IMG/VR virus record: IMGVR_UViG_3300014039_000013
Coordinates: 96,404-160,403 of that record
Reading direction: 5' to 3' (one strand)
Length of the DNA stretch: 64,000 nt
From: a virus
Taxonomy: Duplodnaviria; Caudoviricetes
The position numbers and the translations under genes are program-made. The notes under the pieces are model-generated. The model was not told the origin of the DNA and did not search any database. It worked only from the letters and a program-made list of their open reading frames with translations. Positions 6,569 through 33,152 of this stretch are shown here, one piece after another. Numbering within the stretch: the first letter of the stretch is position 1; each line of letters opens with the position of its first letter.

Positions 6569-6569
6569 C

Positions 6570-9985: not shown

Positions 9986-10042
9986 TAATAAGCACACTGA
10001 AAAGTGTGCGTGCTCTAGTATATTCCACCTAGAGGGGTTAAA

Positions 10043-10201: not shown

Positions 10202-10238
10202 TTGAATAAAATTTAGTTAAACATATAAATTATCTACG

Positions 10239-10746: not shown

Positions 10747-10819
10747 AGCTTCTGATAGGATTCAAACCTACGACACATGGAGTACAAAACCATTGCTCTA
10801 TCAACTGAGCTACAGAAGC
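10747..10819 (-). tRNA. trnT: tRNA-Thr(TGT)
   Basis: Acceptor GCTTCTG/CAGAAGC, loop TTTGTAC. Confidence 0.85.
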
Positions 10820-10879
10820 AGAATGAAATGCAAATATTTCACAACATTTGCACTTCTAAATGTTATACAATTTGAACTG

Positions 10880-10953
<74 letters not shown>

Positions 10954-11026
10954 AGGAATAAGTAAGCGTATTTCACAATAGACTTACTTAAGAAGTACAA
11001 ATAAACTTTTATAACAGATATATTTG

Positions 11027-11107
11027 TTGCATAAAGATTAGTATACAGAATCAAATTGGTATATTCTGCTTAGAAGGTAGACATAATAACCTTTATACTA
11101 ACACTGC
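11027..11107 (-). pseudogene. Degenerate tRNA (TCT anticodon)
   Basis: D-arm-like AGTATAAAGGTTATTAT and TCTAC-CTTCTAA-GCAGA retained; T and acceptor arms broken. Confidence 0.4.
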
Positions 11108-11211
11108 AGACAATTTGGTCTTATTTATTACAAACTAGACTATATCTTTCAAACGTAATGTATAACTATATTAAATATAATATTTTTAATATTATTTTCA
11201 AAATAAATTTT

Positions 11212-11745
11212 TTAATACCCGTTTTTTCTATAATATTGTAAATTTTTATCTGCTAAATCATATAATTTTTTAATATTTGTTCTTAATAGTATTTTATATT
11301 GTGTTAATACTATATCATATAACATGGTATCAGCAGAAATTCCAAAATTATTTACATCATATTTATCACATTTGTGATTTTCCCAAAATATAATTGATTC
11401 TGTATTTAAACCATAAATTCCTCCAAGGTATACTTGATCAGGAGTCATAGTTAAAATTGAATCACATCTGAACATACCTGTTTTATCTGGACTTAAATTA
11501 ATATTTTGAAATCCAGATCCCCAAGCATCTTTATGTATATTTAATAGTTGTTTTAAAGATGTTGCAACTTCAATATTTTCTAATATTTTAGGAGCATTAT
11601 GAAGTTGCTTAATATAAAGAGATACTTGTTCTTTATTTTTATTTATTTCTTTTTTATGAAATATGTTATTCCAGAGATTATTATTTTTCATGTTTTTGAA
11701 TTTTAAAGAAAATAGCGTGACCTTTAAAAAAATGCTTAAATCCAA
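11212..11745 (-). CDS. Hypothetical protein (likely start MKNNNLW)
   Basis: ORF track. Confidence 0.7.
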   Translation of the reverse strand: MDLSIFLKVTLFSLKFKNMKNNNLWNNIFHKKEINKNKEQVSLYIKQLHNAPKILENIEVATSLKQLLNIHKDAWGSGFQNINLSPDKTGMFRCDSILTMTPDQVYLGGIYGLNTESIIFWENHKCDKYDVNNFGISADTMLYDIVLTQYKILLRTNIKKLYDLADKNLQYYRKNGY

Positions 11746-11841
11746 TTCGATAACAATCTTTTAAGGAACGTGTACAAATCATAAACCAATTAGATTTACC
11801 AACGCGGTAAAATGTAATTTTATATTTTCTTTTCATTTTAA

Positions 11842-12063
11842 TTAATAAGATATTTTATTTAATGAATCTATTTGTAAAATAGCTTGATTATTATAAATAA
11901 ATATTATTGTATGTTCTCTTGGATTTATCTTAAAGGTATCAGCTTTAATATAAACAGTATCATGATAATTATTTCTAATTACAGTATACTGATGTCGTTT
12001 ACTACAACTAGAAATAATCATACATGATATTAAGAAGTAAAAATAATATTTATTAGTAATCAC
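11842..12063 (-). CDS. Putative small lipoprotein
   Basis: Hydrophobic N-terminus ending IISSC. Confidence 0.5.
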   Translation of the reverse strand: MITNKYYFYFLISCMIISSCSKRHQYTVIRNNYHDTVYIKADTFKINPREHTIIFIYNNQAILQIDSLNKISY

Positions 12064-12261
12064 AATTAACTATTTTCTTATCTTCTTTCTTGACATAATG
12101 TTCGATTTCTTCTGTTAATTCTTCAACAGTAAGAACATTTCTGTCATAGAGAATGAAAAGGCTACTCATTATCTCTGAGTTTGTCATTTTCTTTAATTTT
12201 TGAAGGATTTTTCTTTTTAGTTTTTTGATAATTTACTGCTTTATCATCATAGATAGACAAA

Positions 12262-12756
12262 TCATTTATATCTAATTTCATGTTTTCTTATTACTTTGAT
12301 GTTTACAGGAATTAATTGTGTTGTAATAGCTATAAATGAAAAGGTGTCAAGCTCTTCAGGATGATTTTTTATATTATGATAATATTGATTTTGTACTTCT
12401 GAAAACGTTCTACCTAAAACTTTAGCTACATATTTAATACCTACATTTATGTTACTAGATAAACTAGCTAATACTGCACAGAGAAATCTTACTTCTACTT
12501 CAGTCCAAAAAGCATTTTTACGTTCTTCAGGATAATTATAAAAGGAAATAGAAGAAAGTACGTCTTTTAATTTAAGTATCTCTTCCTGAGAGAACCTTTC
12601 TTCTAACAAATTTAAAGTAACTTGTCTTCTCCATACACAAGGACACTTTTTTTCAGCTATTTCTCTATAAAGAGTATTAAATTCTTTTAGGAGAATTAAA
12701 TCTTTAAGATTAATATTGTATTCTTTTGATATATTGTTGAGGCTAATTATAATCAT
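12262..12756 (-). CDS. Putative Myb/SANT-like HTH DNA-binding protein
   Basis: FWTEVEVRFL...VAKVLGRTFSEVQNQYY pattern. Confidence 0.5.
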   Translation of the reverse strand: MIIISLNNISKEYNINLKDLILLKEFNTLYREIAEKKCPCVWRRQVTLNLLEERFSQEEILKLKDVLSSISFYNYPEERKNAFWTEVEVRFLCAVLASLSSNINVGIKYVAKVLGRTFSEVQNQYYHNIKNHPEELDTFSFIAITTQLIPVNIKVIRKHEIRYK

Positions 12757-12869
12757 AATAAAAAATTTTAATGTTAATTATTTAAATATTACTACAATAT
12801 CGTAGATAATGTTTTAATAAAACAAATACCCCTATTCTCACGAACCAGAGTATATAAACATGTTGACTT

Positions 12870-13190
12870 TTATCCTTTATAATCATCATATCCCATATTA
12901 TCATAATATATTTCTTCTTGGGATTTGGCATAATAGAGATACTGACCAATAAAGTCAGCAACTTCTTGAAAGTCTTCATTGTTACCAGTAAACTGATATG
13001 GTGTGAGACTTTCAATATAAACTACTGCTCTTAGCATTTTCTCTGTAGGTTTACGCAGAGAAGTTCTTGCTTTACTAATTTTCCAATCAGGTCTATTAGC
13101 CAGCATTTTGAAGTTAAGGGCATCATTAAAAGTAGAGAATTTTGCGAGAAAATGTCCTTCTGTATCAAGGACTCTGTATAATTTTTCCAT
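12870..13190 (-). CDS. Hypothetical protein
   Basis: ORF track; A-rich Bacteroidetes-type leader. Confidence 0.7.
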   Translation of the reverse strand: MEKLYRVLDTEGHFLAKFSTFNDALNFKMLANRPDWKISKARTSLRKPTEKMLRAVVYIESLTPYQFTGNNEDFQEVADFIGQYLYYAKSQEEIYYDNMGYDDYKG

Positions 13191-13250
13191 TGTTGTTTGT
13201 TTTAAATTAATAAAAATAAGCAGTTTTATATCATGCTTAGGATAGGATAA

Positions 13251-13478
13251 TTACTCAACCACAAATTCGGCTTTTATTATCTCTTTAACTGGAATAACGT
13301 TCCAATTATTAAACATATAATTCCAGAAATACAAGTTACCTTCATCTACGAAGGTATCCTTATATCTATCACCTTCATTAAAGTTGATGAATACTTTGAT
13401 TGAAGGTAATGTTAATGTTAATTCTGCATCATTAGCGATGCAAAAATTAATTATTGTATCCAATGTTTCTTCTTTCAT
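13251..13478 (-). CDS. Hypothetical protein
   Basis: ORF track. Confidence 0.65.
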   Translation of the reverse strand: MKEETLDTIINFCIANDAELTLTLPSIKVFINFNEGDRYKDTFVDEGNLYFWNYMFNNWNVIPVKEIIKAEFVVE

Positions 13479-13697
13479 TGTTTTAAATGTTTTAAGCAGA
13501 GAGCAATATCGCTCCCTGCTTTGATGAATACTAATTTAATTTGATAGATTCCCAACTTACTCTTTTACCATTTATGATAACAGTTGGGATATCTAGAATA
13601 AGATATTCAATATCTTCTTCTTTAAGAGATACCTCATACTCTTTATTATATGCTGCTATAATGTTTTTAAGCAACATACAACTTATTTGTATTTCTA

Positions 13698-17850: not shown

Positions 17851-17939
17851 GGCTCTGTGGTGTATGGTTGCACGGGTTGACTCTAAATCAATATAGCCTT
17901 CTGAGGGCGGCGGAGTGGGTTCGATTCCTACCAGGGCTT
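17851..17939 (+). tRNA. Amber suppressor tRNA (anticodon CTA), long variable arm
   Basis: Acceptor GGCTCTG/CAGGGCT; D stem GTGT/GCAC; GTTGA-CTCTAAA-TCAAT; 22-nt variable region; GTGGG-TTCGATT-CCTAC. Confidence 0.88.
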
Positions 17940-17946
17940 CTATAAT

Positions 17947-18456: not shown

Positions 18457-21192
18457 ATGGCAAAAAAAGAAAAAACTAAAAGAAGTAAATCATTTACTGA
18501 TTTATTAAATCAACTTGTTGAATCTCGTTAGAATAGAAATGTTGATTTAGAAGAAAAGAGAGACGCTATTAGAAATCCAGTTGAGGATTTACCACAAATA
18601 GCAAAAAGTGAACTTTAGAATGAAGCAAATTCTAGAACTGTAATTAATAATACAAGCAATTGGAGTATTCAAACTAACGAATATGGATATCCTTATGTTT
18701 ATTCTGAAGATTTTCAAGAAGCAATACCAGAAGAATTTTTAAATGATGTATTAGAAAAAGTTCCACAATTAAAATAGGGCTATTAGAATATACGAGCTGT
18801 ATATGAACAAAATGCACATCCAACAGTAATAACACAAGGTGAAGATCATTCTAATGATACTCCTTATCAATAGAAAATGCGTGAACAAAATAATAGATAT
18901 TGGGCAAGACAATATGAACAAAACACAGGAGCAGAAGCTCTTAGCGGATTGTTGGCTCCACTTATGCCATCATAGTGGGTTTCTGCAATATCTAGAGGTA
19001 TACAAGATAAATCTTTTTTATCTGCATTAGAAGGCTTATATACAGGTCATGGATTTAAAGATTTAAATAGTTCTGCATTACAAGGAGATTTAGGTACTGC
19101 GGCAAATTTTGTATTTGATATTCTTGGTCCAGTAGCTGTAGGTAAAGTTTTAAAAGGATCAATGTCTGTAACAGATGGTATAGCTTAGGCTTTAAAAAAT
19201 AGTAATATAGTAAATCAAATAAAGTTAGGTACAAAATATGCAAGATAGCTTGGATATTTAGGAATGAATATGCCGCTTCATATATTAAAACCAGAAGAGG
19301 CATTTCAATTAGTTAAATAGGGTGTTAATGATAAAGATGTATTAGATTATATAAACACATTATCAGATGATGTAATTGCAAAAGCAGCAAAAGATGCTAA
19401 ATTTACTAAAAAAAGTATTGTAAATTTTGGTACACACAGTGCCAGTGATAGAGTCGCTAATGCTTTGGCAATTAACAAAGCTAAATATCCAATAACCGAA
19501 ACTCCTATTAGAGATTTAGCAGAATTAAAGAAACAAATTGCAAGTTTAGAATCTAAAGCCAAAACCACAAAATTAACAAGATCAGAAAAAAGTTAGCTTG
19601 AAAAATTAAAAACGCAAGTTTAGCAAATACGTGGTTTAAAAAGAACTAATGCTAAAAATAATTTAACGGACGAATAGTTAATAGATAGTTTTAACAAAAA
19701 TCCAGAAGATCCAATAGCATTACAACTTATTAAAGATAAAAATTTATATCCATTAGTATAGAGTAGAGATATTTATACTAAATTAGCAACTGGAAAAAGA
19801 ATAACAGAAGCAGAAAGACAACTTATTAAATATGAAGATCTTACTGAAAAAGAATTATAGAATTTAAAAACACTTGATTACAAAAATGGATTTAATAGTG
19901 CTGGTATAGATGAAGCTATAGCAAAAAAACAATCTATTGTTAATTAGCCTACAACGCCTGGATCTACACCTAACTCTACTACAGCTTCAGAACCATCACC
20001 TACTGTTTAGCCAACCACAGAACCTGTAGCTAATCCAGTTATTGAACCACTGTCAGTTAATAATCCAACATCAACAGCCCCAGAACCTGTAGCTGTTCAA
20101 GAACCAACAAACCCCACAGAATATACTTTTATAATTGATACTCCTACAAGAAGCATTAAACTTAATGTATCAGATCCTAACTCAACTAAAGCATTTGATG
20201 AATTTGGAAACGAATATGGAGTTGTATGGTAGAAAAACGAATACGGAGAGCTAACACCTAAATTAACAGGTGAAGTTAAAATAGATAAAAGTCAATACAA
20301 TAGGTTATTTTCGACAAATCCAAATGTTGATTTATCTTCTGGGGAAGTTAGAATGGTTGAAGGAGAAAGTAGAAATAAATTTACACATCCGCAAGATTTC
20401 TTTACAAAACCAAAGAAAAATAAGAGAGGCAAAATTGGAACTTACTTTCTTGGAGAAAAAGCTAGACCACAAAAAGTAAAACCTACACTAGTAGAATACG
20501 GTGACGAACTTTATAATTTATACTCTAATGTTGATATACCAGAACACACCAAAACTATTAATTGGTGGACAACTGCTCCAGCATTAGGTGGAACTGGTTA
20601 TGGATTGTATTCTTTAGGTGATTGGATTTTTGGAAAAGATACACCAGAAGAAAAAGCAGCAAAGTTAAAACAAGAAGCACAAGAGAAAAAAGCCGATATA
20701 CAAGAAGCAATACAAAGTGCACGCATACCAATTTATGATTTTGAAGGAGAATTAGCTGATACAGTATCAATTAATATTAATGGTAAACCACAAATTTATG
20801 CTATAAAACCTACAAATAAAATTGATCCAGAGTACCATCCCGATTCAAATATTTGGTCTGGTATTCCAATTACTATTGATAAAGATGGTATTGGGCATAT
20901 TAGGAGTGATGAACCAACATTCTTTACTAAGAAATATGGAAAATGGATTCAAGTAAACAGTGCTCATGATTTAGCAACTCCAGATTAGTTTTAGCAAGTT
21001 AATGACACAACAAATATGGATAATAGTTTACCAGCTGTTAGTATGCCAAGTTAGCCATCAGAACAAACCCCAACTAGATAGTCTACTCCAGTTCAAAGAC
21101 AACAACCAGTTGAACAAAATACTGATCCAGATGATGATTATGTAAAAAATGATTTTTTAAAAACATTATTTAATAATACATATTATGTTTGA
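18457..21192 (+). CDS. ~911-aa putative virion cargo protein (TAG=Gln), 'A-type' N-terminus
   Basis: Start, the 20353-20988 fragment and the final TGA share one frame under TAG read-through (interior only partly read codon by codon); P/T-rich linker. Confidence 0.75.
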
Positions 21193-21871
21193 TACTCCAT
21201 TTGTTACATACGACCCATTTGCCACATATAATCAAGTTGATCCACCGCAAATAGATTATAAAGAATCAAATTACCAACTATAGTCTTTGATTGACAATTT
21301 AAAAAATCTTGATTTTAATAAAAGATTAGACGTAGATGATTTGCCTCAAATTGAGAATAATCATGAGGTTAAAAATGATGAATATAATATCCAAAATAAT
21401 ACGTCTGACGATAAAGATACTACACAAGCAAATACAGAAACAAAACCTAATAACAAAAAAGCTCAATTGGAATCTGTATTAGATGCTTAGGGAATTACAG
21501 GGTAGAAAAAAACAACATTACTAAAAATTGCAAAAATCGAATCTGGATATAATCCTAAATCATAGGCTAAGGGTTCTTCCGCTTGTGGATTATTTGGTTT
21601 TATTAATAGTACCAGAAAGCAATTTAGTAATTTAAGTAGAAAAGACTTTTTAAATGATATAGATGAACAAGTTAGGTGTGCATCACAGCTTTATGAAGCT
21701 CAAAAATAGTTTTTAATAAGAAAAGGATTTAATCCATCTCCAGAGGCGATCGCATTAAGTTGGTTTAGTCCAAAATGGGCAATAACATATTTAAAAAATG
21801 GAGTTGATGAAGGTAAGGATATATTTGGAACTACACCTAGTAAATATTTAAAAAAATTCAGAGAAGCATGA
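21185..21871 (+). CDS. Lytic transglycosylase (SLT) domain protein (TAG=Gln)
   Basis: IAKIESGYNPKS...SSACGLFGF. Confidence 0.8.
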
Positions 21872-22434
21872 CAATGACTTAGTATGATAGAGTGTATTAG
21901 GACGTAAACGCTAGAATCGATACATTATTACCATTATTTAAAAGATTAAAATCATAGTACAAATTGTCTGACACATAGGCAATGGGGTTATTAACTAATA
22001 TAGCGGCAGAATCTGGCGGAAATCCAAATGCAAGAAATGGTCAGTATTTTGGATATACTTAGTTATCTCCTATGCAAGTTGATTTTATTAAAAAATACTA
22101 TGGTAGTACAAACGAACATGCATAGTTAAGATATTTAACAGACGGTATGCGCGGAAAGATTAAAACAAATGATAATAATATTAATTATGAATTAAAAATG
22201 TTGCAAAAGCTTAATAAAAATTATACAGATTCATTATCTTTTGCAAGAGATTTTCATAAGTATCATGAAAGAAGCGGAAGTCAAGATTGGCCAAAACGAC
22301 AATTGTATAATAAAGCATTAAGAGAAATATTTAAAAATAAATTTCATATTAATGTTGCCTCTAATTTATTTAATCCTAATATAGATTTATATAATCAAAA
22401 TATAGATTTAAATGAGCAAAACTATCTCACCTGA
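21868..22434 (+). CDS. Phage tail lysozyme-like protein (TAG=Gln)
   Basis: AMGLLTNIAAESGGNP...FGYT(Q)L...FHKYHERS. Confidence 0.7.
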
Positions 22435-23857
22435 AGAAGTTATTAAAAATGGATATTCGTTTATAAAAACTACAGACGGAAGACTTGTTTTAGTAGATAA
22501 GGATTACAATATTTTAATTAATGATGTTTAGAACCAACCTTAGCTACATGATTGGATAGATTTACATAAATTGTGGAATCATCCAGAAGGATTAGTTGCA
22601 ACGCATAATTATAATCATATTCGTAATTCTGAAGGAATGAAAGCAATTGATGATGCTGTAAGGTGGGGAGGAAATACGGCTGGGCTATTCGCTACAACAG
22701 TAGCATTAGCTCCAACTGCTCTTACGAGTGTTGTTACATATACCCCTATAATTGGATAGAAGTTTGTAAAACCATTTTTAAAATCAATGGATTATTTATT
22801 TAATCCAACAACATATCATGGCGGTTTGCTTTCTAGTGCGGTTGCTGCTAATGAAATTAATAATTTTAAGAATAATCCAAATATTGAAAATGGTGTTTAT
22901 GCTGGATTATCGTTATTGCCATTTTATCCAGCAGTAAGATCTGCCATTTCTAAAACAACAAATACAGCAAAAGATTTATATGAATTATTAAAATATAATC
23001 CTACATCTAAATTAACTTATCAACCAAGTATAACAACTTTTACACCAAATCCTAGTATATATTATAAATCTATTTCCGTTGGTAATACATATTGGCCAAA
23101 ACAGAAAGATATATTTAAATACAATGCTTATTTAGATTCTTACTTTTATACGGATAAAGTTAAAGCTTTAATTAAATAGTTTGAATTAGATGGAAACTTA
23201 AAAACATTATAGTAGTCGTTAAAAACTCTTCCAGAAAAAGATGCAGAATAGTTAAGAATGTTTTTAAAGACATATAATTTTTAGCACGACAAAGTACCTT
23301 ATTATGATTCATTAGACAAATTATTAAGCGATCATCCTAGTTTAAGAAGATCGTATGATAGTTCTCCACGTAGTTCAAAACAAGATATTAATCGAGCTGC
23401 TGGAGTTGTAATTGATAATGGAGAAGATTATGCTGTTTTAATTAGAGAGGATAGCTAGATCGATCATGAATACGAACATATGCTTCAAAGAAAAAGATAG
23501 AATCAAAATGGTCCATATCTTGAAGAACAAGTAAATCTTTTACAATCTGCTTATAAACATACAGATGGAGATCCAATAACATCATTAACTGATGAAAAAG
23601 GTGCTGTAAATTAGCAATTAAGAACTTCTATTATTAATTAGTTTGAATAGGAATTTAATAGACATCCAACTGTTGAAGAATATTAGAGATATGTAGATTC
23701 AATACCAGACGATTATTTAAATGCAATGCTGAATACTGATACAAATGATTATGGAATGCAATATTCTAGTAATAATTCTGATATTGGATTAATAAAACAA
23801 GCATTAAAATATATTGGAATTTCATCTGTTCCATTAGTATTTAAAAATAAAGAATAA
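22412..23857 (+). CDS. 481-aa protein, 'B-type' N-terminus + zincin-like HExxH domain (TAG=Gln)
   Basis: Joins track fragments 22571 and 22787; DHEYEHML near 23461-23485. Confidence 0.7.
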
Positions 23858-23860
23858 TAA

Positions 23861-23896
23861 AAAAGCTCGGCTATTTCTAGTCGAGCTTTATTTTTT
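23861..23896. terminator. Bidirectional terminator between convergent arrays
   Basis: AAAGCTCGGCTA-TTTC-TAGTCGAGCTTT flanked by A/T runs. Confidence 0.8.
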
Positions 23897-24515
23897 ATAT
23901 ATATCTACGTATGTTTTCTATTTTCATTTTTGGTAATTTTCTTTCAACAACACCAGATTTTTTATTTGCGGCGTCTATAATATAAATCTAACCGTTTGAA
24001 TCAATCTTACTTACTAATCCAATATGCTTACCACTTGATGATGCGTTAGAAGCAAATTGGATTATATCTCCTTTTTGGACATCATTAAAATTAATTTTAT
24101 CTCCAGATTTTCCTTGCTATGCAGCTGTTCTTGGAACATTTATTCCAGCAGATGCAAACACTGTTTGAATCAATCCACTACAATCAAATCCATTTTCCGA
24201 AGTTCCTCCCCAACGATAAGGTGTACCAATGTAACTTCTAGCTTTACTGATGATTTTGTCAACAACATTATTAGGTGTATACACAGTAGGATTAGATAAT
24301 TCTCTCTAAGTTACTGGAACAGGTAGCTCTGTAGTATAAGAAGCTACATCATAATCGCTTGGTTTTAATATAGTTGGTAAGTGTTCAGTATCATTATTAT
24401 CATAATTTAAATAATCAAAAATACTTAATTGCTACGAACTTGGATTATATAAAGATTGTATTGTTGGAAGCGATTGTTGGAAATAAGGAGAATAAGAAAT
24501 ATAATTATTCTGCAT
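23895..24515 (-). CDS. NlpC/P60 peptidoglycan peptidase (TAG=Gln), absent from ORF track
   Basis: YIGTPYRWGG...GFDCSGL...PRTAA(Q)Q...GDII...HIG. Confidence 0.88.
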
Positions 24516-27500
24516 ATAAATCAAACATATAATTTATAATAACATCAATTTCGTCATCTGTAAAATTTTGATCTTTTAATTTATTTTTTAAATAATCTTC
24601 TGTTTTAAAATTATGTCCGTGTGATTTTTCATTTGCTTCATTAAACATATCTTGTAATGGTAATGACTCTATATTTTTATTTTTTAATAAAGTAGCATAA
24701 TTCTATGCATCTTCATTTATCACGCCTTTATGTAATTTACGTTTTAACGATCGATACCCTACCATACCAAGACCTCCTAACATACCAAGACCAAAACCAA
24801 TAGTTGGCGTCATAATTGCTGCGTTCACAAAATTATTTTTTAAATTACTTGTATTATGTATTCCACTAAGATATAAATTTCTCCAAGTATTTGATTGTCT
24901 TGATAATATATTTTGCGCAGACTAAACGTCATATGATGGGAAATATAAGCCAGTAGAAGGTTCGGTTGCTTTAGATTGATAATTTCTCAATAATTCTTGA
25001 AATTCTTGGGAATAATTTGGTGAAGTGAATAGTTTTACTCTATCAATGACCTAATCATTAGATTTTGTGTGTGCTATTGTTGGTATATCCCACTTATTAG
25101 AAAATGTTAAACCTACTTCTGGTGTCCAACCTTTCTATATTAAATATTTAGTTGGATCATTCTAAATATCTAGCATGCCAACATAAGACCCACCATATGC
25201 CCCTACGCCTCTATTTGTTGCCATAGATCTCCATAATCCTAAATTACTTGATTGTGATGCATTAAAAACACTTTTTGGATCTGAATAATATTCAGATCCA
25301 AAATTGTTTTTATTAGTAACACGTTTTACTTGATCCACAAATTCATTTAATGTTAAATTGTCATCATATGACAATCTACCAATACGAACGGAACGGAATG
25401 GGAAATTATCACCAAATGCTGTAATACCACCACTAGTGTGATTCTGTCCTACACCAGAACCAGTTCCACCTCCATACTAAATATTTTCAGTAAACCCTCT
25501 TAATAATTCTTCATTTGTTAAATCTCTGCCAACATATGGAGAATATCTACCTTGTGCTCGTAATCCATAAAAATTATTCATATAATATACATCAAATATA
25601 TTCTACATTTGTTTTGGATTTTTAGCAATTTCATTTATTTGGTTTTCTGTAAAATATTGTTTTGCTGAATTTTCATTTATAACTTCTTGTAAAAATTTTT
25701 TATTAGCTTCAACGTCATCAAATCCTGTAATTTGTGCAGACGGACGTTTCCATGTTGAGCCAAATAAAGATTTTCCTTTTGTTAGAATTGCAGATTCAAT
25801 AGCAGACTACTGTTCTGGCATGGTTAATAAATTATAAGCTCTATATCCTTGTTTCGCGTTTGCTGGATTTTGTGCACTTAAGTTTGCGCCCATAAATAAA
25901 ACATCAGACAAATGAACTTTTGCAACATTATCTCCTTGTCTAAGTTCCTAAAATAACTATTCAGCAGATACTGGAAGAGGTATATCGTAAGTAGTAATTT
26001 CGTTTAATTCATTAGCTTTATATAACCTATTTGCTTCTTCTGGATGTAATACAGAATATATCTAATGTGCTAGTTTACCAACGGCCTATCCATTTTCGTT
26101 TTCTTGAATTATATCAAAATCAACGCCATTTGTGTTGCCCTGGGCAAATTCAGAAACTCCTTTTTCATCGCCAAGACCATTTGTTCCAGTTTGCTAAAAA
26201 TGTATATTAGATTTTGCTTTATTTAATCTAGCAGCAGTAGTTATAATTTCTGTATCATTATTAACTTGGTTTTGAATAAAGCCCCTTCCGACACCAACAG
26301 TTGATCCTGTAACTAGCCCCTCACCATTTAAGGTTTTATTCAGGCTACTTTCGTAATTTCTAACAGCTTTTATGATTTCTGGATTTGAAAATCTTGACTA
26401 ATATAATCTTCTAGTTATTTTTGTGGATATAGTTATCGGTTTATCTTTTACAAGTAAAAAATTATAAGGAGCTTCCCCTATTTTTAATTCAATATTCTAG
26501 AGATTTTCTGGAGTTTGTAACATAACTGCACCACCACTTACATTACTTGTAGTATTTCCAAATTTTACTTCAAAATTTGGTACAACCATATCAACATACA
26601 CTGGCTCTGGTTGTTTATTAAATTCTGGATGATGTAATATTTCCTGTTCTGATTTATATAAATCAGGAAATAAAATTTTCTTTTCGTCATCTTTAGAAAA
26701 ATAACCATCAGAATATTTTTTGTCTCTTAAACGAGTAGTTAGATTATTCCAAGATTTTTTAGGTCCATACTAAAATAAATATCTCATATTAGTCCATCTT
26801 TCAGGGATTACATTTTCACCAAGCCACTATCCAGCTTTTTTAGCTGTATTATATACACCCTTATATGTTTTACTAGGAATACCAAAAAACGGTGTTGCCG
26901 CCAATGCAAAATTGGCAACCGCCGCAGCCTTTCCGTCATTTATATTAAATGCGTGTTTTAATTGATCCCATCCTTCTGCTGTATAATAACTAAACTACGC
27001 ACCATTAGCAGCTGCTCCCCAACCCGTGTTTGCAAACAAAAGAGGATACTTATATCCTTGCGTCATTAAAGATGGTGTGGTTCTTGTAAATAAAGTTTCT
27101 GCCAATGTTCCTAAATTAGTATTTGGTAAAACTCTATCAACTAAAAACTATGTTCCTTTTTGTGCAGCATTTGTTGCTTGACCAAGACCAAATCCACCTA
27201 ATGCAAATTCAGCAGCAACTGGAGCTGTTGCTACCGCTGCGAGACCCAATGCTGCTGCATCACCACCTTGTCTCATATCATCTCTAACTTGTTGTATAGC
27301 ATCCTTATGTGCAACAGTTGCTCTCTAGCTACTTTGAGTAAAATTTTCAGCTTTATCCCAAAGATTATTTTTATCTATCCACTATGTTAAAAATGGAGAT
27401 CTCTATACATTTGGAACTATAACTTTATAACCATTGTTTTTGTCAACAAGTTGCAACTTACCATCTTGATTAGTTAAAAACGTGTATCCATATTTTAATA

Positions 27501-27714
27501 CATCATCCGCATTAACAGCTAAATGCCCATTTGAGTTTCTATACTATCCAGGAGACCATTTTCTATCTACTGTTACAGAAGCCTCATTAAGTTTAGTAGG
27601 GTTTTGTTCTGAAGCTAAATCTATAACCATATCATTAGCTTGTTGTTCTAATCGCTAGCCAAGCTACTACATCTACTATAAATACGGATTATCTTTTATT
27701 TCGTCGTCATTCAT
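24505..27714 (-). CDS. ~1069-aa putative cargo protein, 'B-type' N-terminus, possible nucleotidyltransferase domain (TAG=Gln)
   Basis: Start, 25162 fragment and stop share one frame with read-through; five TAG in first 20 codons; LVTGS...NDTEII...VDFDII. Confidence 0.7.
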
Positions 27715-29113
27715 TTTGTTTTAATATTTGTATTGGTAATGTTGAAAATAAAGTGCCAGTTAACGCTTTCCAAACATACGGCATTGATTCTTCATCTAAT
27801 TTAAGATAATTTATTAATCCAGATTTAGGACTATTTTTAGGATAACTTTTTATTATTTGTAATGCTTGTTCATATCCAGGATATTCTTGTCCTATTTTTA
27901 ATCCTAAATCTTTTCCTATATCTCTAGTATTCATTACTGCTTCAACAGGGGTAACAGATAGATCAAAATCTCCATAATAAGAATTTGGTTTAAATATTTT
28001 AGAGCTTTTCGTTTTTAAAAATCGATGTTCTTTCATACCTAATTTTGGATCGCTTGCCATCAAAGATTCAGATACGTTTCCATGTTTGAAAGAATGCCCG
28101 TGCTCGTGTGCGCTAACATACTATGGACTCATATTTGAACCAAGATTATATGTAATATCACCATTGCCGTCAGCACTTCCTCCAATATCACTTTTTGGAT
28201 CATAATATGTTGTTACTTTATATTTCTAATTGAATTCTGGTTTTTCGTAAGTTGGAGTATAATGTAATCCCATCTATTCAGCTTCAATGACATTTTGTTC
28301 AGCAGCCTATCTATATGCAGAACTATTTATCCAATCTACCGTTTCTTGTCGTCCCTATCTTATTAAATCAGACAAATTACCTGTTTCCCACTATTTTGTT
28401 TCTGGATTAAATAAATATGGATAACCATTTTCAGACCACGATTTACTTAGATATTTTCCATTAAATGTTGGAGTGTCCAATTTTGTTACACTAAACATAT
28501 TTCTTTTTGGATTAATACTATAAATTAATCTTTTAGGAACTTTTATAACTTTATTTCCAAGAATCATAAATGTTAAATCTGTCGTCAAACCAGCAATCTA
28601 TCTATTTTTAACAGGCTAATCAGTAGCAGTAAAAATTCGTTCTGCAACATATCCTGGTCTAGTAACATTTAAAACTGTGTTAAAATTTTGTTTACCAGAC
28701 TAATAATAATCATTTGATTTTTGCTATTGATAAAATTGTTCTCTCTAAAAATCGTTATGATTATCTCCATCAGATGATGAAACATACGATGTATTAAACA
28801 ATGCTTTATCAGCATCGTCTTTTGCCTAATGCCACATATCATATAATTTCGAGTGCTCCGATAATACATCATCAAGATATTTATCTGGCACTTCTTCATT
28901 ATCATTCATAACAACTCCAACAGGATAACCAATTTGATTAAATTTAATAGTATAAACTGAACCCTTTAACCAATGATTTAAATCCTATGTTGTTTGTGCT
29001 GCTTCTGGATTATTATTTATAAATTCCTATGAATCTGTTAATCTTATGGCATCCCGCGGTTGTTCTAAAGTTTTAGTACGAAATTTTATTTTTGTTTTCT
29101 TTTTATTTACCAT
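27707..29113 (-). CDS. 468-aa protein, 'A-type' N-terminus + zincin-like HExxH domain (TAG=Gln)
   Basis: Joins fragments 28391 and 27707; VSAHEHGHS and downstream PVEAVM. Confidence 0.72.
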
Positions 29114-30326
29114 TTATTTTTAAACTATTTAAATATTTTCTCAAATAATCATAATTTAAGTCTTGATATCTACCTGCTCTATCGCTATACATCCAACCAG
29201 TGCCTAATTCATTAGGTATAAGTTCTGTATAATTACCTTTAGGAGTAATTGTTATTGATGGTAATTGATAAGCACCATTATACATAGCTTTTGTGTTACC
29301 ATTATTATAATATAAATCTGAACCTAAATAATCTAGTACTCTATCTGTATTATTAGGTACAGCTTGTCTTGCAGACATGTTAAACACCCTATCATTATTT
29401 AACCAAGAATTAATACCTAAATCAGGATAAGTAGGATGGCTAGGTTTCTTATAAGTACCACTTTTTCCAGCATCTGGGAAATGTGCTTTACTTCCTTGTT
29501 CTATAGCTTTTAACTGTCTATATGCTTCAGTAGGATTATCATTGTAATATTTTTGATAATCATAATCATCCTTGTTTATATCTTGGTTGTTCCATGCTTT
29601 AGATAATCTAGTGGAGAAATCTTTATATGATTTTTTAAGTGGCCCTCCCTCTGCATATCCAACGACACCCCTTGCTCTTAACCTTTCTGGAGGAGTAACC
29701 TTCTCAGTATCATAAACAATTTTTCCAAATTGATTTCTATAAACACCCTCACCTATAGGGGTCAGATTAATAAAAGCAGGATCTGTTGTATTTGAGTCAG
29801 CATACACGTAATCACCCTTTCTTCTAACAGGACCACCTTCAGCATGTTTTGTTTTAGCCTTTTTTGCTTCTGCTTCTTCGGCCATCTTTTTCCTTGTTGT
29901 TTTTAAAGAGTCCGCTGTTGCCACCGCAGAACGATGTATAGCGATTGGACGATTCCAATAATAGGGAGCTGTACCTACAACACCTTGAGGTAGATTTGCT
30001 CCCTGCTGCCAAGGGTACACATTACTCAGAAAAGTAGGATAACCCTTATAATATGTTGTACTATTAGGTGCAAGGGGACCCTTACCAGAAAAGTAAGGCT
30101 GTTCATGTTGTGAATATAATTTTCTTAAAGTCTCCCAATATTCTTTAGTGGGTATGCCTGCTACTGTTGTAGGTTTTTTTGATTTAGTGGGAGATTTCTC
30201 TTCTGTCCCTTGTAAATTATCATATAAATTTTTACCTGTAATGACAGAGGAAGCATCATCTGGTACACCTACTAAAGATGCGTATCCGGGTAGCATTCCT
30301 ACTGCATCAAAAGCTAGTGAACTCAT
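29103..30326 (-). CDS. Hypothetical virion-type protein; in frame with 30381-30599 across one TGA
   Basis: ORF track; two AEGGP motifs; no TAG. Confidence 0.7.
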   Translation of the reverse strand: MSSLAFDAVGMLPGYASLVGVPDDASSVITGKNLYDNLQGTEEKSPTKSKKPTTVAGIPTKEYWETLRKLYSQHEQPYFSGKGPLAPNSTTYYKGYPTFLSNVYPWQQGANLPQGVVGTAPYYWNRPIAIHRSAVATADSLKTTRKKMAEEAEAKKAKTKHAEGGPVRRKGDYVYADSNTTDPAFINLTPIGEGVYRNQFGKIVYDTEKVTPPERLRARGVVGYAEGGPLKKSYKDFSTRLSKAWNNQDINKDDYDYQKYYNDNPTEAYRQLKAIEQGSKAHFPDAGKSGTYKKPSHPTYPDLGINSWLNNDRVFNMSARQAVPNNTDRVLDYLGSDLYYNNGNTKAMYNGAYQLPSITITPKGNYTELIPNELGTGWMYSDRAGRYQDLNYDYLRKYLNSLKINGK

Positions 30327-30380
30327 AGCACTGGTAGGGTCTTGCCCATTTCTATAAGCTTCTTTGGCTGTATATATATA

Positions 30381-30599
30381 TCAAATGCTAAATCGGGGAC
30401 CTATAGTCCAGGGAGTAGGGATCATTTGTAATGTACTTCCTACTACCGATGCGCCAGCTGCCATTCTTTGTGCATTTTCCCACTTTTCATCAAAGTCAAG
30501 AGTGCTTTCCGTTTGGTATTGTGCGTCTCTTGCTACCTGAGTTTCAGGTAACCCTACTATATCAATAGGAGGTATCTCTTGTATATATGTTCTACTCAT
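30381..30599 (-). pseudogene. Probable N-terminal fragment of the 29103-30326 gene
   Basis: Same frame; TGA next to a TA dinucleotide run. Confidence 0.5.
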
Positions 30600-31159
30600 T
30601 ATAATCTATCTATAAAATGTACAATATTTTTATCTTCTTTCATTTTTTGTGTAATAATAGGATTGTGTTTTTTAGCCCATTTCTTAATAGTACTAAACCA
30701 GTTCATTCTTTTAATATTCTGCCAGAATGAAAGATTTGAATAGAATGGGATATAAGTATAATCCATTATCTGAAATTTTTCATTTAATATAATTCTCCAA
30801 TTCTTTTTAATAGCAGCAAAAGAAATCTTAGCAAGGTAGGGAGGTAAAAACAAAAGTTCTTTTTCAAAGCATTCCTCATCCTTACTATTACCTTTTTCTA
30901 ATATTAATCTGATATGAAAATCTTGATAATCATCTAGTATTTCATATAGCATTTTAAATCTCTTATTAAAGTTTACTAAACCATGACATAATTCCCAATA
31001 TCCATCTTTAGTTCTGTGAACTCTAATATCAAGATATTTAACTCCTAAATCTTGCTGCTCTTTTATTGTCTTTGTTTGTGTTCTCCATAAAAAAGAAAAC
31101 AACTCATATATTTTATTTTTAGCTTTTAAATAAGTAAAGCTATCATGTGTTCCTATCAT
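30599..31159 (-). CDS. PI-PLC X-domain phosphodiesterase
   Basis: GTHDS, TQTKTIKEQ..LGVKYLDIRV, LCHG. Confidence 0.8.
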   Translation of the reverse strand: MIGTHDSFTYLKAKNKIYELFSFLWRTQTKTIKEQQDLGVKYLDIRVHRTKDGYWELCHGLVNFNKRFKMLYEILDDYQDFHIRLILEKGNSKDEECFEKELLFLPPYLAKISFAAIKKNWRIILNEKFQIMDYTYIPFYSNLSFWQNIKRMNWFSTIKKWAKKHNPIITQKMKEDKNIVHFIDRL

Positions 31160-32047
31160 TTAATAATTATATTTAGAATTATTAATTAATTGTTGTATTT
31201 GCGGATTAGTTAATAATAACTATCCATTAGTTTTTACTTTTTGAGTATGATCTTTTTCGTTAGTATTATATATATTAGATTTATATCTTATAAAAGCGGA
31301 CTCTATTGGATGTAAATTATAATTAATTTTTCTTTCTTGATTAATAAGATAATTCCATCCTATATCTTCTTTCTATAAATTTGAATTTTTACTAGCTTTG
31401 CGTTCTTGGTTCAATCGATTATCTGTTATTCTGTCTGTACTATTTAAATATTCATCATATGGATTATCTTCAAAATATGCCCAATTACTAAGTAACACAA
31501 CTGGTGAATACATGTTGTTTCCAGAATTAAAACTTCGCCAATGTTTAGAATTAATCATACCGTTATACTATATTCCAGCAGTCCGATCTTTATGATTTCC
31601 TATTGTGCTTTCTGTAAATGGTAATCCTAATGCTTCTTGTTTTGAAATATTAACTTTGCTGCCGTATTTTAATAACGAATCTACCACATTCTAATTTATT
31701 CTTAAATTATTGATTTTTGGATTATCACTTTTTATTATAATTTGATTACTATTGGGAATACCAAATTTTTTATCTTGATATTTGCGTCGAGCTTTAAAAT
31801 ATTCCGACTAAGCTTTGGCATACTATTTCTTTCCATATAATTTAGTTACAGTTCCATCGCTGTTGTACTATACCCATATATTACCATGTCTATATTTCTT
31901 TCCTAATGGCATCCATTTACCGTCTCCATTTCTCCATCTTTTTTCTTTTGAAAAATATGTAGGATTACCATTAGGCTTGTATGTTGAATCAGAAATTGCA
32001 TCATATATATTTTTAACTCCACTAACTATTGAATCCCATAAACTCAT
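31160..32047 (-). CDS. 295-aa protein, possible lysozyme-like fold (TAG=Gln)
   Basis: Read-through ORF containing fragment 31373; EALGLPFTESTIG. Confidence 0.55.
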
Positions 32048-32055
32048 TATATATT

Positions 32056-32337
32056 CTAATTAAAATCAGTTATTAATACATGTATTTTATTTTTATCTAT
32101 ATTTTTAATATTAAATATTCCATTATGAACCTTACGATGACAATTGGCACAAAGTAAACAACATTTGTTCATTTCTCTTAGTATGTCTTTTGAATCTATA
32201 TCATGTTTTAAACGATGGCTTAAAGAAAATTCTTTATTTTCTAAATGATGAAATTCTAAACAACAAAACTCAGATTCTCCACAAATAATACATTGATGCT
32301 TAGATTTGTATTTCTTTAAAAATTCTCTAGCATTCAT
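32056..32337 (-). CDS. HNH endonuclease
   Basis: CIICG...LEFHH...LLCANCH. Confidence 0.85.
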   Translation of the reverse strand: MNAREFLKKYKSKHQCIICGESEFCCLEFHHLENKEFSLSHRLKHDIDSKDILREMNKCCLLCANCHRKVHNGIFNIKNIDKNKIHVLITDFN

Positions 32338-33152
32338 TTTTTATATTTATCTCTATTTATATTATATTTTGTTATTGCAGTTTTTAATCTATCGCCTTGT
32401 TCTATAGTAGGAAGTATAACTATTGTATTAACTCCGTCTTTAGTTCCTTTGTTTACATATCTATAATGTTCTTTTGCATATTCAAGAGAATCACCAGGAG
32501 TTGTTATACCTTTAATATTTCCATCTTGATTTGCCCCATATCTTAAAGCTCTCATTGTTGCATCAGCACAATTATTAGTTACTAAATTATAATTAGGATC
32601 ATCTCCACCCTTACTAATTTTTAATGGAATTCCGTAATTATTATCCATAATTAATTCTGAATGACCAGTAAAAGGATACATACTTATAAACGGATAATAT
32701 GTATTTAATCTGACTGGTCTAGCTGCAACAACTTCTGGAATTGTGTGTATAGTAACAGAATAGCGGTCAGGATAATTACCCTTATAAACATTTGAATCCG
32801 TGGTTAACATATCTTCGACATATGGATTGTTAGTTTGTGGCTTGGGGTAAAAATATAATTGACCATTATCATTTTTCCAATATTTATCTGATTCTACATG
32901 TTTATTATATTCTTCTAAAGCTTTTTTTAATAAGCCTCCTTGCTGATGTTTCCAAGTTCTAGCATTAGCCGCAAAAGTAGCCCGTTTCCTAATTTTAGGA
33001 TCAGAACTGTTTTTACCTTTTTGAATACACTCATTTGTTACTTTACCTCCACAATAATCTGTAAATTTTCCTTTATTCTATTTCTTTATCTTAATTTTGT
33101 ATCCTTTTTTAAATCTTGGAACTAATTTTGGTAATAAATTTAAATCATTCAT
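32334..33152 (-). CDS. Basic N-terminal domain + permuted papain-like peptidase (TAG=Gln)
   Basis: KGKFT...RKRATFAANARTWKHQQGG, then GHSE...YNLVTNNCAD (His before Cys). Confidence 0.65.

What the first reader, a model, noticed from the sequence alone, without database searches (positions are those of the whole stretch)
18457..29113. Convergent arrays of modular cargo proteins: shared N-termini, different enzymatic C-termini
Seen only after recoding. 18457(+) and 29113(-) share an N-domain (SIQTNEYGYP..IPEEFLNDVL vs TIKFNQIGYP..VPDKYLDDVL). 22412(+) and 27714(-) share another (EEVIKNGYSFIKTTDGRLVLVDK..WIDLHKLW..VRWGG vs DDVLKYGYTFLTNQDGKLQLVDK..WIDKNNLW..MRQGG), followed by an Ala/Gly-rich hydrophobic stretch. 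The SLT and NlpC/P60 genes also start alike (FVTYDPF vs YISYSPY). C-termini differ: unknown, zincin, zincin, putative nucleotidyltransferase. Inference: a polymorphic virion-delivered effector system in which the N-domain is a packaging or translocation tag and payloads are exchanged. This is my best candidate for an undescribed system, and standard gene calling misses it.
Basis: partly seen in the sequence, partly recalled or inferred. Interest (0 to 1): 0.8.

Follow-up and report, generated by a model that had tools for sequence, protein, structure and literature searches.

The report
Swappable cargo-protein module in crAss-like phage
A large gut crAss-like phage that reads TAG as glutamine has a late-gene block of cell-wall hydrolases and four big proteins built from two shared N-terminal modules joined to exchangeable enzyme-like ends; these are probably proteins carried in the virus particle and injected into the host, but no protein data test that.

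Summary
Under TAG=Gln, 18457-33152 resolves into two convergent late-gene arms that meet at a bidirectional terminator.

**N-terminal similarities**
- ND2, shared by the 481-aa and 1069-aa proteins, is significant (BLASTP 3e-12).
- ND1, shared by the 911-aa and 468-aa proteins, is short but significant (z=9; hhalign E 1e-6).
- The SLT versus NlpC/P60 N-terminal resemblance is not significant.

**Payload exchange**
- ND2 is a rare family: 14 representative clusters among 1.84 billion proteins. It is fused to at least six C-terminal architectures.
- One relative keeps a 285-aa N-module 96.5% identical to that of a 1069-aa-type protein but carries an unrelated HExxH end.
- The 468-aa protein's zincin-like end occurs behind at least four different N-termini.

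**Virion delivery is inferred only**
- The genes are TAG-rich late genes next to the packaging module.
- Three cell-wall hydrolases in the block best match tail or virion protein families.
- Hydrophobic Gly/Ala helices follow the N-domain in three of the four large proteins.
- The first gene of the minus arm has a 53-aa motif 74% identical to crAss001 cargo protein gp45.

I read this as the phage's cargo or ejection-protein module with polymorphic payloads. It is a new variant of a known kind (polyvalent proteins, MuF polymorphic toxins, crAss001 cargo). This scan has already flagged similar islands in other crAss-like genomes.

The parts
17851..17940 (+). Suppressor tRNA, anticodon CUA. Context only: it is needed to translate the block.
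   Evidence: ARAGORN; TAG aligns to Q in a standard-code relative
18457..21192 (+). 911-aa protein (P0001). Layout: basic N-tail, ND1 (residues 66-113, window 18652-18795), hydrophobic helices (19084-19164 and 20554-20634), C-terminal region of unknown function. 21 TAG codons.
   Evidence: orthologue at 76% identity on a 160,308-bp contig
21185..21871 (+). 228-aa lytic transglycosylase (SLT domain at residues 105-157) behind an ~100-aa low-complexity N-terminal extension
   Evidence: Pfam SLT 3.3e-5; PHROG transglycosylase, tail fibre and baseplate hub families
21868..22434 (+). 188-aa Phage_lysozyme2 (phage tail lysozyme) protein
   Evidence: Pfam PF18013 5.6e-9; PHROG tape-measure family
22412..23857 (+). 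481-aa protein (P0003). Layout: ND2 (22412-22696), hydrophobic Gly/Ala helices (22667-22981), zincin-like end Z1 with HEYEH at 23465-23479. 14 TAG codons.
23862..23889 (.). 12-bp-stem hairpin flanked by A and T runs: a bidirectional terminator between the convergent arms
23895..24524 (-). 209-aa NlpC/P60 peptidoglycan endopeptidase behind an ~85-aa N-terminal extension
   Evidence: Pfam NLPC_P60 1.3e-19; PHROG minor tail, tail and virion structural families
24505..27714 (-). 1069-aa protein (P0004). Layout: Gln-rich leader, ND2 (27235-27528), hydrophobic N-module to about residue 280 (26875-27714), Pol-beta-like nucleotidyltransferase region (25765-26382), GGGTGSG motif (25453-25473), C-terminal hydrophobic helix. 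The catalytic-type motifs are GS at residues 470-471, DxE at 487-489 and D534. 28 TAG codons.
27707..29113 (-). 468-aa protein (P0002). Layout: basic N-tail, ND1 (28820-28963), zincin-like end Z2 (27710-28471) with HEHGH at 28094-28108. 14 TAG codons.
29103..30326 (-). 407-aa protein (P0007). It has no TAG codons and GC of about 0.38, and carries two [HY]AEGGP motifs. Its C-terminal domain (29178-29657) is 60% identical to the N-terminal part of a structural-module protein of IAS virus.
30599..31159 (-). 186-aa protein without TAG codons. A homologue directly precedes the 1069-aa-type gene in a relative.
31160..32047 (-). 295-aa late protein (7 TAG codons), no family match
32334..33152 (-). 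272-aa first gene of the minus arm. It carries a 53-aa motif (32952-33110) that is 74% identical to residues 371-423 of crAss001 gp45 (cargo protein C1).

Best explanation
The block 18457-33152 is the cargo (ejection or internal virion protein) module of a 160-kb TAG-recoded phage distantly related to Crassvirales.

**Proposed mechanism**
- The genes are translated late, once the CUA suppressor tRNA is active.
- The products are loaded into the particle and expelled ahead of the DNA.
- Three small enzymes (SLT, tail-type lysozyme, NlpC/P60) open the peptidoglycan.
- The four large proteins share one build: a short basic or Gln-rich leader, a small docking domain (ND1 or ND2), one or more Gly/Ala-rich hydrophobic helices that insert into the host envelope, then a payload. 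The payloads are two unrelated HExxH zincin-like domains, a Pol-beta-like nucleotidyltransferase, and one unknown domain.
- Recombination just after the hydrophobic region swaps payloads between related phages, so the set delivered is polymorphic.

**Shown**
- The recoding.
- The two paralogous N-modules.
- The catalytic-type motifs.
- The payload swaps.
- The gp45 motif next door.

**Inferred**
- Packaging, ejection and membrane insertion.
- Enzymatic activity and targets.
For: **Late, structural-side genes.**
- TAG codons occur only in this block and in the structural and giant-ORF genes, not in the early arm.
- The block abuts the terminase and portal module.

**Virion-type enzymes.** The best PHROG matches of SLT, lysozyme2 and NlpC/P60 are tail, tape-measure, baseplate and virion proteins. 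Endolysin appears only at 9e-4.

**Link to a proven cargo protein.**
- ORF 32334-33152 shares a 53-aa motif at 74% identity with crAss001 gp45.
- In the phage collection the motif occurs only in Crassvirales, mostly in genes annotated as putative transmembrane protein, the annotation that gp45 carries.
- gp45 was found in virions by mass spectrometry and cryo-EM, and has an N-terminal transmembrane helix (PMC10172136).

**Shared build.** Hydrophobic Gly/Ala helices follow ND2.

**Modularity.**
- The ND2 profile finds only 14 representative clusters, of 395-1142 aa.
- P0019 and P0012 are 96.5% identical over residues 1-285, then unrelated.
- P0021 and P0024 are the 481-aa type plus a 280-aa insert. 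P0018 is a 481-aa-type hydrophobic region joined to the nucleotidyltransferase.
- The Z2 end sits behind at least four different N-termini, with middle modules present or absent among proteins whose first 149 residues are 92-99% identical.
- Contig-length fingerprints place P0019-type and P0021-type proteins on one 158,148-bp contig, and orthologues of the 1069-aa and 911-aa proteins on one 160,308-bp contig.
- Plus-arm synteny is kept in L007. In L008 the 407-aa and 468-aa genes are absent.

**Phage-restricted.** No ND2 or Z2 relative was found in 185,579 prokaryotic species genomes.
Against: - There is no proteomic or structural evidence that any of these proteins is in a virion.
- The four large proteins show no detectable homology to crAss001 gp45 or gp46, and PF25725 crAss_CARG1 is absent from the genome.
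- Both AlphaFold models are poor (mean pLDDT 49.5 and 53.9).
- Fold matches are below any safe threshold: nucleotidyltransferases at Foldseek E >= 0.05 and Z 5.0; zincins at Z about 4.
- Allelic replacement at one locus is inferred from protein sequences and contig lengths.
- The phage's lysis genes have not been identified, so one or more of the hydrolases could be endolysins.
Confidence: 0.58

Rival explanations
1. The block is a late lysis and envelope-remodelling cassette that is not packaged. The three peptidoglycan hydrolases are endolysins. The hydrophobic-helix proteins are membrane-anchored holin-, spanin- or peptidase-like factors that act from inside the infected cell, for lysis or superinfection exclusion.
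For: - It holds three cell-wall hydrolases, and proteins with hydrophobic helices, in a late operon.
- No other lysis cassette was identified in the window.
- NlpC/P60 has a weak endolysin PHROG match (9e-4).
Against: - Proteins of 468-1069 aa are far larger than holins or spanins.
- The hydrolases carry 85-100-aa non-catalytic N-terminal extensions and no signal peptides.
- Their best matches are tail and virion families.
- A nucleotidyltransferase-like payload makes no sense for lysis.
- The gp45 cargo motif is in the same operon.
Confidence: 0.12
2. They are external tail-tip or fibre-like structural proteins. The shared N-domains are virion-attachment anchors, as in tailspikes with conserved N-terminal adaptors. 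The variable C-termini are receptor-binding or surface-degrading enzymes that act from outside the cell.
For: - A conserved N-terminus with a variable C-terminus is the classic tail fibre and tailspike pattern.
- The C-terminal domain of the 407-aa protein matches the N-terminal part of a structural-module protein annotated as SGNH hydrolase in IAS virus.
- The block sits near structural genes.
Against: - Gly/Ala hydrophobic helices directly follow the N-domain.
- There were no fibre or beta-helix family hits.
- Predicted structures are mainly helical.
- Nucleotidyltransferase and zincin motifs suit intracellular or periplasmic action.
- A tail protein with an adjacent reverse transcriptase lies elsewhere, at 49744-52891.
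Confidence: 0.1
3. The block is an ordinary ejectosome with paralogues. An ancient inverted duplication of an [ND1 protein, hydrolase, ND2 protein] cassette produced the two arms. The N-domains are simply conserved channel-forming parts, and C-terminal differences reflect fast divergence and domain accretion. There is no tag-plus-payload logic and no effector role.
For: - The two arms mirror each other: the ND1 protein lies upstream of the ND2 protein in each, with hydrolases in between or after.
- ND2 identity within the phage is only about 30%.
- Some family members (P0026 and the L009 protein) have ND2 plus hydrophobic region and no payload.
Against: - N-modules 96.5% identical carry unrelated C-termini.
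- Near-identical Z2 proteins differ by whole middle modules.
- Both are recent exchanges, not slow divergence.
- The payloads carry invariant catalytic-type motifs.
Confidence: 0.15

Closest known systems
Cargo proteins C1 (gp45) and C2 (gp46) of Bacteroides phage crAss001 (Bayfield et al. 2023, PMC10172136)
   Same: - Late genes beside the structural module of a crAss-like phage.
- A basic N-tail followed by a Gly-rich hydrophobic helix.
- The proposed role: ejected first and forming or passing an envelope channel.
- A 53-aa gp45 motif (74% identity) lies in the first gene of the minus arm.
- That paper notes that cargo sets vary between crassvirus groups.
   Different: - The four modular proteins show no detectable homology to gp45 or gp46.
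- PF25725 is absent from the genome.
- gp45 and gp46 carry no recognised enzyme domains and are not described as payload-swapping.
- Here the virion RNA polymerase-size genes lie elsewhere in the genome.
Phage-type polyvalent proteins (Iyer, Burroughs, Anand, de Souza, Aravind 2017, PMC5512222)
   Same: - The domain repertoire: zincin-like metallopeptidase as hub, lysozyme or transglycosylase, Pol-beta nucleotidyltransferase.
- Heavy domain shuffling.
- Proposed delivery with the invading DNA.
   Different: - Polyvalent proteins string 2-15 effector domains in one polypeptide.
- Here each protein carries one recognisable payload behind a shared N-module, and the hydrolases are separate genes.
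[quoted passage not shown]
- None of its named domains was matched here.
MuF polymorphic toxins of temperate phages (Jamet et al. 2017, PMC5576092) and polymorphic toxin systems generally (PMC3482391)
   Same: A conserved N-terminal domain is thought to direct the protein into the phage particle, and variable C-terminal enzymatic domains are exchanged by recombination.
   Different: - No Pfam domain, MuF included, was reported in the four large proteins (Pfam scan).
- No immunity gene follows any payload.
- The host phage is a large, apparently lytic crAss-like phage.
- The N-modules include hydrophobic helices.
T4 internal proteins (IPI-III, Alt) with the capsid targeting sequence.
   Same: A shared N-terminal element marks otherwise unrelated proteins for encapsidation and injection, and the locus varies among relatives.
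   Different: - The T4 tag is a peptide of about 10 residues that the prohead protease removes.
- ND1 and ND2 are folded domains of 50-95 aa, mostly followed by hydrophobic helices.
- No protease site was identified here.
Ejection proteins of podoviruses: T7 gp14/15/16 and P22 gp7/16/20 (cited in PMC10172136)
   Same: - Capsid-stored proteins that span the envelope.
- T7 gp16 carries a lytic transglycosylase (my own knowledge).
   Different: - No sequence relation was found.
- Here the hydrolases are separate small genes, and the large proteins carry exchangeable non-hydrolase payloads.

Membership tests
crAss001 cargo protein C1 (gp45; Pfam PF25725 crAss_CARG1) | Sequence match to gp45 or to the PF25725 domain | tested here: not met
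   - PF25725 finds nothing in the whole 160-kb genome.
- phmmer of gp45 against all genome ORFs hits only the 53-aa motif in ORF 32334-33152.
- hhalign of gp45 against the four families gives E >= 0.006, over glycine-rich helices only.
crAss001 cargo protein C1 (gp45; Pfam PF25725 crAss_CARG1) | N-terminal hydrophobic or transmembrane helix, and a late gene beside the structural module | tested here: met
   Hydropathy peaks of 1.4-1.7 after ND1 (911-aa protein only) and after ND2 in both ND2 proteins; the 468-aa protein has no segment above the threshold. TAG-rich late genes lie next to the terminase and portal genes.
crAss001 cargo protein C1 (gp45; Pfam PF25725 crAss_CARG1) | Physical presence in virions (mass spectrometry, cryo-EM) | not testable with these tools
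   There is no cultured representative and no proteome at hand.
Phage-type polyvalent proteins (PMC5512222) | Two or more unrelated effector domains in one polypeptide | tested here: inconclusive
   Each large protein shows one catalytic-type motif. Relatives add middle modules of unknown function. No named polyvalent-protein domain was matched.
Phage-type polyvalent proteins (PMC5512222) | Zincin-like MPTase domain (HExxH helix plus a downstream Glu) | tested here: inconclusive
   - HExxH is invariant in both families.
- An invariant downstream Glu exists in Z2.
- Structural matches to PPEP-2 and PPEP-3, neprilysin and the lethal factor centre reach only Z 4.0-4.3.
- Peptidase_M78 matches below its cut-off in one homologue.
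MuF polymorphic toxins / polymorphic toxin systems | Conserved N-terminal trafficking domain with recombining C-terminal domains | tested here: met
MuF polymorphic toxins / polymorphic toxin systems | MuF (Phage_Mu_F) N-terminal domain | tested here: not met
   The Pfam scan of all block proteins reported no MuF or other head-morphogenesis family.
MuF polymorphic toxins / polymorphic toxin systems | Cognate immunity gene immediately downstream of the toxin end | tested here: not met
   The genes overlap or abut the next large gene or the terminator. No small ORF follows any payload.
Pol-beta superfamily nucleotidyltransferase (payload of the 1069-aa protein) | hG[GS] ... D-x-[DE] ... third acidic residue | tested here: met
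   G470, S471, D487, E489 and D534 are invariant in nine homologues at 31-89% identity.
Pol-beta superfamily nucleotidyltransferase (payload of the 1069-aa protein) | Nucleotidyltransferase fold, or a match to a curated family model | tested here: inconclusive
   - Top Foldseek PDB rows are nearly all Pol-beta-fold enzymes, but E >= 0.05.
- VIA gives ANT(2'') at Z 5.0, 150 residues aligned, rmsd 5.7.
- There is no Pfam, NCBIfam or PDB sequence match.
Tail fibre / tailspike with N-terminal anchor (rival) | Fibre, beta-helix or receptor-binding domain families | tested here: inconclusive
   No such Pfam or PHROG match was found, and the models are mostly helical. The models are of low confidence.

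The most novel reading that the evidence does not exclude
ND1 and ND2, each with its hydrophobic helices, are true portable loading-and-translocation handles. Any payload fused behind them is packed into the particle of this crAss-like clade and driven across the Bacteroidota envelope. That would make this a phage-borne polymorphic effector delivery platform distinct from MuF, the T4 capsid targeting sequence and gp45. Its zincin and nucleotidyltransferase payloads would act as injected host-takeover or anti-defence enzymes.
Probability: 0.3. Interest if true: 0.75.

Novelty: new variant of a known kind. Interest (0 to 1): 0.55.

Why it matters
Crass-like phages are the most abundant viruses of the human gut, yet how they enter cells and what they inject is known from a single structure (crAss001). 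That paper itself says cargo sets differ between groups.

This locus offers:
- a defined, testable set of candidate cargo proteins for a divergent, recoded clade;
- two new N-terminal modules that can be searched for;
- evidence that payloads are swapped between close relatives, as expected for proteins in an arms race with the host.

If the handles really direct loading and delivery, they would be useful for annotating crassvirus dark matter. They would also be useful for studying protein delivery by phages.

Tried and rejected
**Searches that found nothing**
- Megablast and tblastn of the block and of P0004 against 50,697 phage records.
- Single-protein scans of IMG/VR with P0004 and with the terminase, and alignment scans with A3 and A4.
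- Search of the two nearest INPHARED relatives (MT835470.1, code 11; MT835539.1, code 15) for the four proteins. A local phmmer at E<=1 found only the SLT catalytic domain and the C-terminal domain of the 407-aa protein. The block is therefore not conserved at that distance.
- PDB sequence and profile searches. The only result was a sub-threshold (E >= 0.08) match of the GGGTGSG motif to the tubulin signature.
- Scans of genome contigs with A2 and A4.
- The BFVD fold search, which was uninformative.

**Ideas tested and rejected**
- ND1 and ND2 being related to each other (hhalign E about 0.1).
- The three HExxH modules being related beyond the motif.
- The C-terminus of the 911-aa protein being homologous to that of P0029 and P0030, suggested by the shared ...N-x-x-Y-V end. 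hhalign E is 0.12. Only P0025 (BLAST 0.004) and the L007 protein (3e-5) give any signal.
- The SLT and NlpC/P60 shared N-terminus.

**Partial result**
- The metagenome scan gave only two short contigs, L007 and L008.

Full report
**What the DNA is**

The window is the last 64 kb of a single 160,403-bp virus record. The record has a 50-bp terminal overlap, is rated 100% complete, and has a GC content of 27%.

Its large terminase is about 28% identical to those of classified Crassvirales. It is 45-50% identical to two unannotated human-faecal phage records: MT835470.1 (standard code) and MT835539.1 (TAG recoded).

TAG is a sense codon here:
- Under table 11 the region 18457-32047 is a field of short ORFs. 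Under table 15 it closes into long genes.
- No gene ends in TAG, and TAG is confined to late genes.
- A tRNA with anticodon CUA lies at 17851-17940.
- TAG positions in conserved proteins align to Q in the standard-code relative in 18 of 52 cases, and to no other residue more than four times.

**Anatomy of the block**

| Arm | Coordinates | Product |
|---|---|---|
| Plus | 18457-21192 | 911-aa protein (P0001) |
| Plus | 21185-21871 | 228-aa SLT transglycosylase |
| Plus | 21868-22434 | 188-aa Phage_lysozyme2 protein |
| Plus | 22412-23857 | 481-aa protein (P0003) |
| Between | 23862-23889 | 12-bp-stem hairpin with A and T runs on both sides |
| Minus | 33152-32334 | 272-aa ORF |
| Minus | 32047-31160 | 295-aa ORF |
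| Minus | 31159-30599 | 186-aa ORF |
| Minus | 30326-29103 | 407-aa protein (P0007) |
| Minus | 29113-27707 | 468-aa protein (P0002) |
| Minus | 27714-24505 | 1069-aa protein (P0004) |
| Minus | 24524-23895 | 209-aa NlpC/P60 peptidase |

The minus-arm genes are listed in order of transcription. The hairpin separates the two arms.

The arms mirror each other. In each, the ND1 protein lies upstream of the ND2 protein.

**Are the shared N-termini real?**

- **ND2** (P0003 residues 1-95, P0004 residues 63-160) is secure. BLASTP gives 3e-12. The local score is 175 against 27.8 +/- 4.9 for shuffles.
- **ND1** (P0001 residues 66-113, P0002 residues 51-98) is short but real.
  - BLASTP gives 2e-4.
  - The score is 91 against 35 +/- 6.1, with 0 of 1000 shuffles reaching it.
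  - hhalign of the two small orthologue alignments gives 90.8% probability and E 1.2e-6.
- **SLT versus NlpC/P60** fails. BLASTP E is 13, and 11 of 1000 shuffles reach the score. The closest recoded relative conserves only the SLT catalytic part, residues 84-228.
- ND1 and ND2 are not related to each other.
- Within the 160-kb genome each domain has exactly two copies.
- A Gly/Ala/Pro-rich hydrophobic helix follows ND2. The 911-aa protein also has a hydrophobic helix downstream of ND1; the hydropathy scan found none above threshold in the 468-aa protein.

**The payloads**

- *P0003 and P0002.* P0003 carries HEYEH and P0002 carries HEHGH. Both motifs are invariant across homologues, and Z2 also has an invariant Glu downstream. 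No curated family matches. One Z2 homologue touches Peptidase_M78 below its cut-off. The P0003 model is poor (mean pLDDT 53.9). Its C-terminal half aligns weakly to zincins: PPEP-2 and PPEP-3, neprilysin, PepO and the lethal-factor centre, at Z 4.0-4.3. 'Zincin-like' is therefore a motif-level call.
- *P0004.* It has GS (470-471), DxE (487-489) and D534, all invariant in nine homologues at 31-89% identity. The model has moderate confidence only over residues 445-730. There, almost all top Foldseek rows are Pol-beta-fold nucleotidyltransferases, but with E >= 0.05. VIA gives ANT(2'') at Z 5.0. The assignment is plausible but unproven.
- *P0004, further motif.* An invariant GGGTGSG motif resembles the tubulin signature only as a motif.
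- *P0001.* The C-terminal region has no assignment.

**Are payloads exchanged?**

This is the strongest result. A profile of ND2, scored against 1.84 billion representative proteins, finds only 14 clusters, of 395 to 1142 aa. Together with the homologues of P0004 and P0002, the architectures are:

| Architecture | Members |
|---|---|
| ND2 + helices + Z1 | P0003, P0020, P0022 |
| The same with a 280-aa insert before Z1 | P0021, P0024 |
| Leader + ND2 + helices + nucleotidyltransferase | P0004, P0011-P0017 |
| P0003-type helices + nucleotidyltransferase, without the first half of ND2 | P0018 |
| Leader + ND2 + helices + a third HExxH module | P0019 |
| ND2 + helices + other C-termini | P0025, P0027-P0030 |
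| ND2 + helices only | P0026, and the L009 protein |

These assignments rest.

- P0019 and P0012 are 96.5% identical over residues 1-285 and unrelated after that. The break falls right after the last hydrophobic helix.
- A sub-domain of the P0019 end recurs in the middle of the Z2 proteins P0037 and P0038.
- The Z2 end of P0002 sits behind ND1 in P0002, P0034 and P0035. It sits behind a different N-terminus in P0036.
- Z2 also follows a segment like P0001 residues 132-255 in P0041. In P0037-P0040 and P0042 it follows a further leader.
- In four of those five (P0037-P0039, P0042) the leader is 92-99% identical, yet whole middle modules are present or absent.
- Contig lengths serve as fingerprints. 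They place P0019-type and P0021-type proteins on one 158,148-bp contig, and orthologues of P0004 and P0001 on one 160,308-bp contig.
- Two short ENA contigs add context. L007 keeps the plus-arm order: P0001-like end, SLT, a small gene, then the ND2-zincin gene. In L008 a homologue of the 186-aa gene directly precedes the P0012-like gene, without the 407-aa and 468-aa genes.
'Alternatives at one locus' is therefore inferred, not seen.

**Why I read it as a cargo or ejection module**

1. The genes are TAG-rich late genes beside the packaging and portal genes.
2. The three hydrolases best match domains embedded in tail, tape-measure, baseplate and virion proteins. Two of them carry long non-catalytic N-terminal extensions.
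3. The first minus-arm gene has a 53-aa motif 74% identical to residues 371-423 of crAss001 gp45. This is in a phage whose terminase is only 28% identical.
   - In the phage collection the motif occurs only in Crassvirales, mostly in genes annotated as putative transmembrane protein, as gp45 is.
   - gp45 is a cargo protein shown in virions by mass spectrometry and cryo-EM. It has an N-terminal transmembrane helix and is proposed to be ejected first and to help form the channel.
   - The same paper says cargo sets differ between crassvirus groups.
4. The C-terminal domain of the 407-aa protein is 60% identical to the N-terminal part of a structural-module protein of IAS virus.
5. The ND2 and Z2 scans found nothing in 185,579 prokaryotic species genomes.

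Against this reading:
- There is no homology of the four large proteins to gp45 or gp46, and no PF25725 in the genome.
- There are no protein-level data.
- The lysis genes are unidentified.

**Comparison with what is known**

The logic is that of polymorphic toxins (PMC5576092, PMC3482391). The domain repertoire is that of phage polyvalent proteins (PMC5512222). It differs in these ways:
- The N-modules are new.
- They include hydrophobic helices.
- There is one recognisable payload per protein.
- The hydrolases are separate genes.
- There are no immunity genes.

Earlier notes of this scan describe similar swappable cargo-enzyme islands, and Gly-Gly junction peptides, in other crAss-like genomes. 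The kind has therefore been seen before by the scan, on other DNA.

In this window a [HY]-x-x-G-G-[PL] motif occurs twice in the 407-aa protein and once in the 272-aa ORF. It also occurs at the extreme N- or C-termini of several relatives (P0015, P0041, P0019, P0026). I did not test its significance.

**Verdict**

- Real feature: about 0.9 for payload modularity.
- About 0.6-0.65 that these are virion cargo.
- About 0.3-0.4 that the N-modules act as loading or translocation handles.
- It is a new variant of a known kind.

Noticed in passing
window 29103-30326 (-): The 407-aa gene has no TAG codon among 14 Gln codons, while its neighbours have 14-28 TAGs. Its GC content (0.376 in 29400-30199) is well above the 0.28 background. 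This suggests recent acquisition from a non-recoded source, or a need for expression before suppression sets in. The 186-aa gene at 30599-31159 also lacks TAG.
   Followed up: partly
window 32952-33110 (-): A 53-aa Lys- and Cys-containing motif (KGKFT.YCGGKVT..CI.KGKNS...RKRATFA.NAR.W) is 74% identical between this phage and crAss001 gp45, although their terminases share only about 28% identity. Its role in gp45 (residues 371-423, just before the portal-bound domain) is not described in the paper.
   Followed up: partly
window 49744-52891 (+): A tail protein (phrog_5302, 3.5e-62) is followed by a reverse transcriptase (phrog_1423, 5.4e-96). This is a likely diversity-generating retroelement acting on a tail gene.
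   Followed up: no
window 25453-25473 (-): An invariant GGGTGSG motif in the 1069-aa family is identical in form to the tubulin/FtsZ GTP-binding signature. Only a sub-threshold profile match to tubulins was found (E about 0.08), with no fold support.
   Followed up: partly
window 27655-27678 (-): Five TAG codons fall within codons 13-20 of the 1069-aa gene. Orthologues keep Gln-rich sequence there, so the start is real.
   Followed up: partly
window 29103-30326 and 32334-33152 (-); relatives P0015, P0019, P0026, P0041: A short aromatic-x-x-Gly-Gly motif followed by basic residues occurs inside the 407-aa and 272-aa proteins. It also occurs at the extreme N- or C-termini of related modular proteins, and several times in crAss001 gp45. 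Other notes of the scan describe Gly-Gly junction peptides in crAss-like cargo proteins.
   Followed up: partly
L002 (MT835539.1) 6566-13600: In the nearest recoded relative the equivalent position holds a single minus-strand array of about ten small ORFan genes plus SLT, spanning 7 kb instead of 14 kb. The cargo block is hypervariable at that distance.
   Followed up: partly
window 46287-47171 (+): A GtrB-like glycosyltransferase without TAG codons lies inside the structural gene arm.
   Followed up: no
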